A stretch of 35,034 bases of DNA from the NCBI GenBank assembly GCA_023140385.1, contig JAGLLT010000013.1, forward strand, positions 1 through 35,034. The letters run 5' to 3'. Both the position numbers and the translations under genes were made by a program. Under the pieces are notes generated by a model. The model had not been told where the DNA came from. It made no database searches and saw nothing but the letters and a program-made list of their open reading frames with translations. This DNA is from Candidatus Omnitrophota bacterium (lineage in GTDB: Bacteria > Omnitrophota > Gorgyraeia > JAGLLT01). Shown here piece after piece: positions 11-35,034 of the stretch. How positions within the stretch are numbered: position 1 is the first letter of the stretch; every line of letters begins with the position of its first letter.

Positions 11-84
11 TGGCTGCCCTGCCTGGATTTGAACCAAGACTAACTGAACCAGAATCAGTCGTGCTGCCGTTACACTACAGGGCA
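11..84 (-). tRNA. tRNA-Gln (anticodon CUG), CCA encoded
   Basis: Reverse complement folds as a cloverleaf: acceptor TGCCCTG/CAGGGCA (U1-A72), D-arm GTGT..GCAC, anticodon arm ACTGA-TTCTGGT-TCAGT, T-arm CTTGG-TTCAAAT-CCAGG, discriminator G, then CCA. Lies downstream of glnS. Confidence 0.97.
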
Positions 85-345
85 AGATTTTATATTATCA
101 AGTGAATCTCTAACAATCAATCTTAAAGATTTTTTGCCTTTTGTGGTTTTAAAATATCTTTCTCGCCTAAGAGCATCTCGCTTAGATAGAAAGCATTCAT
201 AAAATATCAAATTTAAATCTGAGTATCGCACTGTTGTATGCACTAAACCTGCTTTATGCTCTTTTATTCGCCTATTCAGATTTTCTGTATAACCAATATA
301 AAATTTATCGTCCAGTTTACTCAACAGCACATAAACGTAATACAT
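70..345 (-). CDS. Stand-alone GIY-YIG nuclease family protein (SLX1-like/UPF0213 type), 91 aa
   Basis: Motifs YYVYVL..FYIGYTENLNRRIKEH and ALRRERYFK. The last four codons and the stop (TGC CCT GTA GTG TAA) are the first 15 nt of the tRNA. Confidence 0.9.
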   Translation of the reverse strand: MYYVYVLLSKLDDKFYIGYTENLNRRIKEHKAGLVHTTVRYSDLNLIFYECFLSKRDALRRERYFKTTKGKKSLRLIVRDSLDNIKSCPVV

Positions 346-32990: not shown

Positions 32991-33018
32991 ATTATAACAC
33001 AAGGATATTTCATGTCAA
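32991..33018 (-). promoter_or_regulatory. Consensus sigma70 promoter with extended -10 for the ilv/aro operon
   Basis: TTGACA (33018-33013), 16 nt ending TGT, TATAAT (32996-32991). Confidence 0.8.
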
Positions 33019-33107
33019 GAATCTAAATTTTACTGGGGGTAACTCAAGGTGATCTCTTGTTACTGAGAGAGCTATAAATGCAGATGCAACAAATTATTTT
33101 TTTACTT

Positions 33108-34385
33108 CTATTTTAACAATTCTTTAAATACAGTACTATTTTTTATCTCTTGATAATCTTTATTTTTGTTGATTTCATCTATCATCTTTTCATCTAATTC
33201 AATAGCTTTTTTAGTCTCTTCAAAGGCTTCATTGGCTTGATTATACTTAAAATAAGCCAGGGCTAAATGGAGGTGAATTTCGCCTATGGAGTTATCTAAT
33301 TTTAAGGCTTCTTGGTATAAAGATATAGCTTTATTGTAATTGCCTTTTCTGTAATAGGCGTAAGCTAATGTATCTACAATATCGCAATCATTTGACTTTA
33401 AATCGTAAGCTTTTTGAGCTAAGGAGAAGGCTTTGTTTAGATTGATGTTTTGTTTTAGATAAAAGTAGGATAACCCATTAAGCGCCGAAGGATTATTTGC
33501 GTCTATATTTATCGCCTTCTTGTAGCTCTTTTCTGCTTCGGTAAATATTTTCATTTCATTATATAAAAAAGCTAATTTATTATAATCACTGGAATTAGAA
33601 CTTAAATTTGCACTTTTTTTAAAAACCTCAGCTGCTTTAGCCGTATTTCCATTATAATAATAAACATTACCTAGTCGTCTGTGTGCATCATATAGACGGG
33701 GGTCATATTTGACAGCCTTTTTGTAATTAGATATAGCCACATTGTACTTATTTTGCACTTCGTATACTAATCCTATATGGTAATATGCTTCAGCAAAATT
33801 AGGATTGTATTTGATAGCTATTTTATAAAAATGAATAGCTGAATTATACTCATTTTTATCACAATAAATACGCCCCAATCCATAATAACTTAAGGCAAAT
33901 TTTGGTGCAATCTCTATGGCTTTTTTATAATAAACTACAGCTTTGTCATATTCTTTCTGTTCCACATAGACATTTCCTATGTTATGTAATGCGTTAGGAA
34001 AATTAGGCTCAAGGTTGGTGGCTTTTTTATATAAAGATAAAGCTTTATCATAATCTTCTTTATCTTGATAAATAACAGCAAGCCCATTGTATGCTAAGGC
34101 AGTAGGTTTAATAGATATAGACTTTTCAAAACATTCTTTAGCTTCATTATACAGTTCTATGTTGTAATAACAAATACCCATGTTATAATACGAATTTGAG
34201 TGTTCTGGATTAAGTTTAAGTGCTTTTTTGTATAGTTTTATTGCTTTCTCATATTGGTTGTGTCTAAAGCAATATCCCGCTCTACTATAGGGATTTAGTT
34301 TAAATATAGCATATATCAGTAGAGAAGATAAAACAATAAATCCAACCGCAATAAACAATACTACAACTTTTTTATTCCTTTTCAT
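33108..34385 (-). CDS. Membrane-anchored tetratricopeptide repeat protein
   Basis: Basic N-terminus plus hydrophobic helix, then about 10 34-aa repeats (AY..LG..Y....Y..A...YKKA...P). Visibly more AT-rich than the housekeeping genes. Confidence 0.9.
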   Translation of the reverse strand: MKRNKKVVVLFIAVGFIVLSSLLIYAIFKLNPYSRAGYCFRHNQYEKAIKLYKKALKLNPEHSNSYYNMGICYYNIELYNEAKECFEKSISIKPTALAYNGLAVIYQDKEDYDKALSLYKKATNLEPNFPNALHNIGNVYVEQKEYDKAVVYYKKAIEIAPKFALSYYGLGRIYCDKNEYNSAIHFYKIAIKYNPNFAEAYYHIGLVYEVQNKYNVAISNYKKAVKYDPRLYDAHRRLGNVYYYNGNTAKAAEVFKKSANLSSNSSDYNKLAFLYNEMKIFTEAEKSYKKAINIDANNPSALNGLSYFYLKQNINLNKAFSLAQKAYDLKSNDCDIVDTLAYAYYRKGNYNKAISLYQEALKLDNSIGEIHLHLALAYFKYNQANEAFEETKKAIELDEKMIDEINKNKDYQEIKNSTVFKELLK

Positions 34386-34451
34386 TACTTTTTTTTACCT
34401 TATAGTTAATTTATTCTATAGTGTGGCAGTATACCTCCGCGTATACGGTAC

Positions 34452-34470
34452 GGAGTCAGGCACTGACCCC
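34452..34470 (-). repeat. REP-like hairpin at the 3' truncation point of the RAYT remnant
   Basis: GGGGTCAG-TGC-CTGACTCC: 8-bp stem with one G-T pair. Confidence 0.65.
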
Positions 34471-34688
34471 GTTGTTTGCTTTGTGGAAATGATTACTCAT
34501 TATGCTCCATGCGTATATTTGCACGTTACTTTTTTCGAGTAATTCCTTTAGGCGGGTATATAACTCTTTCTTATCATACTCTTCTTTAAATATATATTTA
34601 CCTTCCATTCCCCGGGCTATTACCTGCCTACCGTCAGGCAGGCATGATGTAACGCCCCCGGATAATCTATTCTTGCTTGTCTTGGCAT
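34456..34688 (-). pseudogene. REP-associated tyrosine transposase (RAYT, IS200-like Y1 HUH) remnant, frameshifted and truncated
   Basis: From ATG 34688, deleting 34623-34642 gives MPRQARIDYPGALHHVIARGMEGKYIF...IYAWSIMSNHFH. Similarity stops right after the HUH motif; the catalytic Tyr region is absent. Confidence 0.9.
34623..34642. mobile_element. 20-nt palindromic REP-like insertion
   Basis: CCTGCCT-GACGGT-AGGCAGG (minus strand) with perfect 7-bp arms, splitting a GTA codon. Confidence 0.85.
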
Positions 34689-34694
34689 GCATTA

Positions 34695-34722
34695 ATATTA
34701 GCATCTTTTTATTTCTAGTCAA
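34695..34722 (-). promoter_or_regulatory. Putative sigma70 promoter of the RAYT gene (leaderless)
   Basis: TTGACT (34722-34717), 16 nt ending TGC, TAATAT (34700-34695); ATG begins after 6 further nt. Confidence 0.6.
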
Positions 34723-34982
34723 CAATAAAAATGCATGAATGCATCAACGTCCCTTAAAATTCGCTCTGCGTTTAGGGTAGCTTCATAGACTTGATTAGCG
34801 GGGAGTCGCTTCCGATATTATCATGCTGGCCGTAATAATCGGCGTAGCCAATAGGTGACTGAAGTTCGGTAAGTTCCGAAGCTTCTTAAGATAATAAGTT
34901 GTGTCTTGTTTTTATACTGCGGCTTTGACAGTGATAAAGATGTTTGAAGGGGAACGCGTGCTTTTACTTGACTTTTATATCA

Positions 34983-34998
34983 ATAGGTGACCCCCTAT
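34983..34998 (-). repeat. REP-like mini-hairpin upstream of the RAYT remnant
   Basis: ATAGG-GGGTCA-CCTAT; shares GGGGTCA with the hairpin at 34452-34470. Confidence 0.45.
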
Positions 34999-35034
34999 GC
35001 TACATGCTTAATAAACTTCAAATTCATACAAGGA

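What the first reader, a model, noticed from the sequence alone, without database searches (positions are those of the whole stretch)
34623..34642. RAYT transposase knocked out by a precise 20-nt palindrome insertion
Seen: ATG CCA AGA CAA GCA AGA ATA GAT TAT CCG GGG GCG TTA CAT CAT G[CCTGCCTGACGGTAGGCAGG]TA ATA GCC CGG GGA. With the insert the frame ends HHACLTVGR-stop; without it the frame reads HHVIARG, the typical RAYT N-terminal strand. There is no target duplication beyond a 1-nt G ambiguity. Known: Y1 HUH enzymes move ssDNA hairpins without target duplication. Inference: a single 20-nt hairpin is itself the mobile unit, smaller than REPIN doublets, and here it inactivated a gene of the class thought to spread REPs.
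Basis: partly seen in the sequence, partly recalled or inferred. Interest (0 to 1): 0.72.

Follow-up and report, generated by a model that had tools for sequence, protein, structure and literature searches.

The report
Strand-polar 20-base mobile DNA hairpin
A 20-base DNA hairpin found letter for letter in many bacterial phyla has inserted cleanly, always the same way round relative to its target, into an already truncated transposase gene that is probably a bystander, so the enzyme that moves this tiny element is still unidentified.

Summary
The insertion is real: exactly 20 nt at 34623-34642, frameshifting a Y1 gene; related contigs hold the empty site. 'RAYT knocked out' is only half right: the gene also breaks off after codon 62 (relatives 325-333 aa), and it is the terminal-inverted-repeat TIRYT class, which is not REP-associated. 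The 20-mer is a mobile family: 12 copies here, filled/empty pairs at 98-99% identity, tandem dimers, self-nested copies, 24 of 61 relatives, many phyla, viral contigs. Although nearly palindromic it inserts with fixed polarity: the strand forming a G·T-wobble hairpin follows a purine, mostly G (111 of 122 sites; replicated in two held-out sets), pointing to one-strand insertion. No Y1 link: copy number does not track Y1 genes, and a cultured Olivibacter with 33 copies gave no Y1 or small GIY-YIG match. The mover is unidentified. The scan noted this or sister micro-palindromes before on other DNA; my searches found none in print.

The parts
34623..34642 (-). 20-nt near-palindromic mobile element; the minus strand is the G·T-wobble strand (8-bp stem, 4-nt loop), inserted at a G|T junction
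   Evidence: fold -6.6 kcal/mol on the minus strand vs -6.1 with a 7-bp stem on the plus strand; family and polarity
34643..34688 (-). 5' part of the Y1 (TIRYT-class) transposase remnant, codons 1-15 plus the target G
   Evidence: 68% DNA identity over 200 nt to intact G029 gene after removing the insert
34483..34622 (-). rest of the remnant up to the HUH motif (NHFH); the first three bases form the TAA that ends the shifted frame; homology ends at 34483
   Evidence: Pfam Y1_Tnp E 1.6e-4; 51-52% identity to 325-330-aa intact homologs
34450..34478 (-). TIR-like end abutting the truncation, with the GGGGWSAS motif, folding head-to-head into a 10-bp hairpin; the same 14-mer occurs 3 more times exactly in the genome, once upstream of an intact 315-aa Y1
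   Evidence: motif as given in PMC3733652 and PMC6006769
34740..34753 (-). probable upstream TIR-like motif of the same remnant
   Evidence: a similar motif stands twice upstream of the intact G029 homolog and once on C37; assignment as a TIR is inference

Best explanation
The 20-mer is a non-autonomous micro-element that spreads as one folded DNA strand and is put into one strand of its target. SHOWN: the unit is exactly 20 nt; it is added without duplication or loss of target bases; its two 7-nt arms are the conserved part while positions 8-13 vary; it lands behind a purine (mostly G) on the strand on which the hairpin can form a G·T wobble; it re-inserts beside and inside its own copies by the same rule; surviving copies lie mostly in dispensable DNA (spare tRNA fragments, short tandem-repeat arrays, hairpin repeats, small mobile genes). 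INFERRED: a trans-acting activity cuts one target strand 3' of the purine and the hairpin strand is joined there or copied in from a donor copy (the target G equals the element's last base, a 1-nt microhomology that could prime copying), and replication makes the second strand. The mover is most likely not a Y1 transposase; the best leads are the small selfish cassettes that share its habitats (GIY-YIG, four-helix-bundle) or a host nicking/repair activity. The window's gene is a TIRYT remnant, a neutral landing place; whether the insertion or the deletion came first cannot be told.
For: Copies: 12 at <=2 mismatches vs 0-1 in 5 Markov-4 simulated genomes. Filled C14:14913 and C16:17497 against 8 empty paralogs at 94-99% identity in the part of the output shown (output was cut). 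Filled and empty tRNA copies within one locus in L079, L112, L245, L255, L263. Tandem dimers in 4 fetched loci, two of them one duplicated locus; nested copies in 4 of 219 sites. Junction classes at 208 sites: R|Y 91, Y|R 11 against equal background (chi2 69). Polarity: G|not-C vs not-G|C on the wobble strand 42:4 (discovery, 69 sites), 18:2 (held-out, 26 sites), 21:0 (Bacteroidota, 28 sites in 9 flank clusters); pooled 81:6 of 122, 43:4 of 77 after strict de-duplication. Not explained by gene direction (32:32) or local GC skew (51 of 97 positive).
Against: No movement seen in the act: runs X2, X3, X4 each hold the filled allele in one contig with no differences, and no joint skipping it was listed (contigs drop rare variants). 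No enzyme is tied to it. In this genome the polarity is weak (3:1 of 6 wobble sites, p 0.6). My first wording of the rule (+1 = G or T) failed in Olivibacter, where +1 is often A (15 of 28), and my guessed orientation of the loop-only variants was the wrong way round (4:14). Sites in related repeats are not independent. A wobble also fits an RNA intermediate, and strand-biased mutation after insertion is made unlikely but not excluded, as local skew is a poor stand-in for replication direction.
Confidence: 0.66

Rival explanations
1. A Y1 HUH transposase (RAYT, TIRYT or IS200 TnpA) moves the hairpin by peel-and-paste, and here hit its own kind.
For: No target duplication and strand discrimination of an imperfect hairpin are HUH hallmarks (PMC8266576 passages). 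A second Y1 gene, otherwise open over the matched length, is frameshifted by the element near the same beta-strand in G052. 21 of 24 element-bearing relatives have a Y1.
Against: 30 of 37 element-free relatives have one too (Fisher p 0.73; count rho 0.13, p 0.33). 4 of 226 other element loci have a Y1 within 1.5 kb; none of the 19 Y1 loci fetched holds the element. No conserved flanking tetranucleotide (commonest 4-mer 8 of 208; CT not among the six commonest 5' dinucleotides). G416 has 33 copies and no PF01797 match. No further hit at this site: 0 of 15 metagenome stretches, 0 of 400 phylum genomes, none beyond G052 in 400 class genomes.
Confidence: 0.12
2. The small stand-alone GIY-YIG nuclease of tRNA-linked cassettes nicks the target and the element is copied in at the nick.
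For: 9 of 227 element loci carry such a gene close by. In 61 relatives the four best matches to a profile of these genes (three distinct loci) all have the element 23-39 nt upstream, in the spare tRNA fragment. Counts correlate (rho 0.40, p 0.0015). Other cassettes hold sister micro-palindromes at the same spot.
Against: Four-helix-bundle gene counts correlate as well (rho 0.43; partial rho for GIY-YIG falls to 0.25, p 0.05), and in this genome the element sits in a spare tRNA-Arg fragment of a four-helix-bundle cassette, so the spare tRNA piece may be the attraction. Only 1 of 150 flanking ORFs scanned is GIY-YIG. G416 (33 copies) gave no match to the profile, and Pfam GIY-YIG only in 606- and 480-aa frames. 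The profile was built from genes chosen for lying beside the element.
Confidence: 0.13
3. The element travels as a short RNA hairpin (G·U wobble) and is written into DNA by a reverse transcriptase or another activity linked to the four-helix-bundle cassettes.
For: Wobble-strand polarity suits RNA as well as DNA. Four-helix-bundle genes are in 21 of 24 element-bearing relatives and all 5 Bacteroidota tested, G416 included; many copies lie in short tandem-repeat arrays. That this protein family includes the Avd partner of DGR reverse transcriptases is recalled, not tested.
Against: Polarity is unrelated to neighbouring gene direction; 25 of 37 element-free relatives have these genes too and 3 element-bearing ones gave no match; no reverse transcriptase among 150 flanking ORFs; I did not search genomes for one.
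Confidence: 0.06
4. Not mobile: the 20-mer arises in place by slippage or snap-back synthesis, or is an assembly or adapter artefact.
For: It is built of repeated 4-mers; tandem-like sequence is about twice as common at junctions (11% vs 4-6%).
Against: Same 20 letters in unrelated flanks with no template nearby; genome-specific variants; in cultured isolates and three runs; filled and empty paralogs side by side; junction polarity; reversed-pattern controls 0 in all 61 genomes.
Confidence: 0.03

Closest known systems
SDR5 and other very small mobile repeats of cyanobacteria (Elhai et al. 2008, doi 10.1101/gr.074336.107; not held; seen only through one passage of PMC4390886)
   Same: Very small repeat inserted precisely, with no known enzyme.
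   Different: SDR5 enters one fixed site, HIP1, between bases 3 and 4; this element needs only a purine on one strand and spans many phyla. I could not compare sequences or read the paper or its supplements.
REP / REPIN elements with RAYT (TnpA-REP groups 2 and 3) (PMC3116915, PMC8266576, bioRxiv 10.1101/2021.07.10.451892: passages read)
   Same: Short GC-rich hairpin, many dispersed non-coding copies, strand discrimination.
   Different: No GTAG foot, no CT cleavage site, singlets rather than inverted doublets as the unit (REP singlets were held to be immobile remnants), no flanking RAYT, same sequence across phyla.
TIRtron / TIRYT = TnpA-Y1 subclass 2.1(.2) = RAYT group 1 (PMC3733652, PMC6006769: passages read)
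   Same: This is what the interrupted gene is: MPRQAR...HHVIARG start, relatives 325-333 aa with a Bac_DnaA_C-like tail, GGGGWSAS ends.
   Different: Only 62 codons survive; the class is reported not to be REP-associated, and the 20-mer is not its TIR.
REP insertions inside subclass 2.4 tnpA-REP genes (PMC6006769, passage)
   Same: A palindrome inserted in a Y1 gene.
   Different: Those are the cognate REPs, in frame, between HUH and Y; this one frameshifts, lies before HUH and is not cognate.
IS200/IS605 single-strand transposons (general knowledge plus passages of PMC8266576)
   Same: No target duplication; one strand active.
   Different: No guide tetranucleotide, no 4-5-nt target, no transposase, one hairpin instead of two ends.

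Membership tests
REP/REPIN-RAYT system | GTAG-type tetranucleotide at the hairpin foot | tested here: not met
   Flanks flat beyond +-1; commonest flanking 4-mer 8 of 208
REP/REPIN-RAYT system | Inverted doublet (REPIN) as the replicative unit | tested here: not met
   Single 20-mers in filled/empty pairs; abutting dimers only
REP/REPIN-RAYT system | Cognate RAYT gene flanked by the repeat | tested here: not met
   0 of 19 Y1 loci hold it; 4 of 226 element loci have a Y1 within 1.5 kb; G416 no Y1 match
REP/REPIN-RAYT system | Cleavage of the hairpin substrate by the RAYT | not testable with these tools
   Needs protein and oligonucleotides
IS200/IS605-type HUH element | No target duplication; one strand active | tested here: met
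IS200/IS605-type HUH element | Conserved 4-5-nt target 5' of the insertion point | tested here: not met
   Only position -1 is constrained in oriented sites
TIRYT / TnpA-Y1 subclass 2.1.2 (the interrupted gene) | Long Y1 protein with C-terminal Bac_DnaA_C/HTH domain | tested here: met
   Met by the three closest intact homologs, 325-333 aa, Bac_DnaA_C E 3e-6 to 5e-4, below Pfam's cut-off; the remnant lacks this part
TIRYT / TnpA-Y1 subclass 2.1.2 (the interrupted gene) | Ends with GGGGWSAS | tested here: met
   Motif at 34463-34470; looser motif upstream
TIRYT / TnpA-Y1 subclass 2.1.2 (the interrupted gene) | Placement in the published subclass tree | not tested
   No reference sequences of the subclasses in hand
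NCBIfam NF047646 REP-associated tyrosine transposase | Score above the 80-bit cut-off | tested here: inconclusive
   Closest homologs 67.9 and 58.9, third 81.3; fragment 19
SDR5-type very small mobile repeats | About 20 nt, precise insertion, no encoded enzyme | tested here: met
   size of SDR5 recalled and from scan note e1-6900929
SDR5-type very small mobile repeats | Insertion into a fixed palindromic site (HIP1) | tested here: not met
   No fixed site; hairpin centres near the junction 28 of 219 vs 13-27 in shifted controls
MITE | Terminal inverted repeats around a spacer plus target-site duplication | tested here: not met
   No duplication in any filled/empty pair examined

The most novel reading that the evidence does not exclude
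A 20-nt single-stranded hairpin is a complete replicator that crosses phyla unchanged and is inserted behind a G on one strand by an enzyme class not yet known to mobilise DNA (neither HUH nor DDE), or by ordinary host nicking and repair alone; it would be one of a guild of micro-palindromes that also disable other mobile genes.
Probability: 0.35. Interest if true: 0.88.

Novelty: new variant of a known kind. Interest (0 to 1): 0.64.

Why it matters
How short palindromic repeats spread is a long-standing open question, and single REPs are held to be immobile remnants. Here one 20-nt hairpin is the unit, keeps its sequence across phyla, and shows a target polarity that restricts the mechanism. 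A cultured strain with 33 mostly asymmetric copies and no detected Y1 makes the question testable by deep sequencing. An activity that writes a defined 20-mer into DNA without a scar would also be of use as a tool. The headline as first written, a REP-spreading transposase killed by its own kind of cargo, does not hold.

Tried and rejected
Hot spot in Y1 genes: suggested by G052, not supported; these patterns see only narrow windows of two Y1 classes. Hairpin-tip targeting: the empty site here folds into a hairpin with the junction 2 nt from the loop, but 28 of 219 sites vs 13-27 in 12 shifted controls. One-base target duplication: the excess of G|G junctions is target preference, as L079 shows G|G in the empty copy. 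Leading-strand or transcription bias as cause of polarity: 32:32 and 51 of 97. DUF559 and GxxExxY (PF13366) as movers: rho -0.07 and 0.18. Rfam: no match in 33000-35034. Polymorphism in the population: none listed in contigs of 4 of the 7 runs, which cannot show absence; no RNA holder listed. The locus itself was not found in the one same-genus genome (85% complete). 31 of 181 flanking ORFs were not scanned; 33 of 183 Y1 and 21 of 171 GIY-YIG matches were not listed. The N-terminal query was in the wrong frame and is disregarded. Print: no paper holds the two commonest 20-mers or two derived peptides; searches listed nothing on this element (listings and abstract starts only). Supplements of PMC3733652 and PMC6006769 were not opened and Elhai 2008 was not held, so a listing there is not excluded.

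Full report
Observation. The 20-mer at 34623-34642 is there and unique in the window. It interrupts a minus-strand Y1 gene starting at 34688: with it the frame ends HHACLTVGR-stop, without it the frame reads HHVIARG to the HUH motif NHFH. Intact homologs have no extra bases here, and contigs from another study show the empty junction.

The gene is broken twice. Without the insert the frame has 70 codons and homology stops at codon 62; the closest intact relatives have 325-333 aa. Related contigs run on where the window switches to a TIR-like end. That end carries GGGGWSAS, folds into a 10-bp hairpin and recurs in the genome, once upstream of an intact Y1. The relatives carry a weak Bac_DnaA_C tail and the two closest score below the NCBIfam RAYT cut-off. 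By the passages read, this is subclass 2.1.2, the TIRYT class, where no REP-like sequences were found (PMC6006769; PMC3733652); it equals RAYT group 1, and only groups 2 and 3 go with REPINs (bioRxiv 10.1101/2021.07.10.451892). So the gene is neither shown to have been killed by the insert nor of the REP-spreading class. The TIRYT lead came from scan note e1-806664; the taxon label Omnitrophota from e1-1297782.

The element is real and mobile. This genome has 12 copies within two mismatches against 0-1 in five simulated genomes. Two filled copies of a repeat stand against eight shown empty paralogs at 94-99% identity, differing by exactly 20 nt. Spare tRNA fragments beside intact tRNA genes give filled and empty sites in one locus, including unambiguous A|G junctions. 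Abutting dimers and copies nested in the centre of another copy occur. It is in 24 of 61 relatives with up to 28 copies, in records titled Bacteroidota, Patescibacteria, Nitrospiraceae, Planctomycetes, Chloroflexi, Ignavibacteria, delta- and gammaproteobacteria, cultured isolates among them, and in 64 viral stretches. The exact pattern fixes the arms, so arm conservation rests on the mismatch search in this genome, where 7 of 12 copies have perfect arms and 5 differ by one base.

Target rule. There is no consensus beyond the two junction bases. Purine|pyrimidine junctions are enriched and pyrimidine|purine depleted (91 and 11 of 208). About a third of copies are imperfect, G at position 8 facing T at 13 on one strand, which lets sites be oriented. 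On that wobble strand the base before the element is G in 87 and A in 24 of 122 sites; G|not-C outnumbers its mirror 81 to 6, and 43 to 4 after strict de-duplication. The rule was found on 69 sites and held in 26 newly fetched Omnitrophota-class sites (18:2) and 28 Bacteroidota sites (21:0, nine flank clusters). It does not follow gene direction or GC skew. The window site (G|T on the wobble strand) fits, as do the dimers and nested copies. Against: the own genome alone is not significant (3:1), the +1 position is looser than I first wrote, and related repeats inflate raw counts. A symmetric blunt double-strand insertion would give no polarity, so I infer one-strand insertion of a folded hairpin.

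The mover. Y1: no co-occurrence (21 of 24 vs 30 of 37; rho 0.13), little linkage, no GTAG or CT signature of the kind described in PMC8266576 (passages). One more Y1 gene is frameshifted by the element in G052, but three directed searches found no hot spot. Small GIY-YIG genes are physically close in a minority of loci and correlate in number, as scan note e1-3693300 reported, but four-helix-bundle genes correlate equally and this genome has the element in a spare tRNA piece of a four-helix-bundle cassette. Olivibacter oleidegradans (record of L084, G416) has 33 copies, no Y1 match, no small GIY-YIG match and six four-helix-bundle genes; the mover may have been lost there or be too divergent to detect. 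The enzyme is therefore unidentified; the links found may only mark dispensable DNA.

Comparison and novelty. It works like the cyanobacterial SDR5 repeat (one passage seen; the paper not held) and shares the no-duplication, one-strand logic of HUH elements, but fails the defining tests for REP/REPIN, IS200/IS605 and MITE membership. In PMC3116915 (passages) the doublet is the replicative unit and no singlet excision was found, which is the contrast that makes this unit notable. Searches for the sequence or a description found nothing; subscription papers and supplements were not covered. The scan has noted 19-22-nt mobile palindromes on other DNA; their letters are withheld, so identity with this family is likely for e1-3693300 but unconfirmed. 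The polarity rule and the Y1-free, GIY-YIG-free isolate were not in the notes I saw.

Verdict. Real, mobile, widespread and mechanistically open; the RAYT story is incidental. Interest 0.64, new variant of a known kind.

Noticed in passing
L253:834-853 (G052:C67:21433): The same element frameshifts a second, otherwise open Y1 gene of another subclass (YFVT type), within about 5 nt of the position homologous to the window site.
   Followed up: yes
window 70-345 and the contig start: Small GIY-YIG gene followed by a tRNA gene cut by the contig end; same guild of nuclease-tRNA cassettes.
   Followed up: partly
G000:C9:2286-2510: Element inside a duplicated tRNA-Arg 5' fragment overlapping the end of a four-helix-bundle gene between tRNA genes; the same D-arm position is hit in L245, L263, L264 and L294.
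   Followed up: partly
L266, L267, L270, L276, L277, L278, L279: Spare tRNA fragments before GIY-YIG genes hold other GC-rich micro-palindromes, one with a 19-nt sister of this element nested inside another.
   Followed up: no
G000:C14:47297-47456: A different 41-nt hairpin-like insertion in the same repeat family, 6 nt from the site used by the 20-mer.
   Followed up: no
window 34771-34990: Many short, deeper contigs pile on this stretch in all four runs; it may be the attI-like module of scan note e1-7470708.
   Followed up: no
G000:C14:6228, C16:19932, C47:7293: Longer 23-26-nt palindromes with the same six-base arms.
   Followed up: no
L004 (G000:C10:83597): Another truncated TIRYT-like Y1 gene (113 aa) in this genome, beside three full-length ones on C13, C22 and C45.
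   Followed up: no
L071, L087, L120: Element lies inside long open frames of conserved genes (FtsK, sugar epimerase) that stay open, suggesting compensated or 21-nt forms.
   Followed up: no
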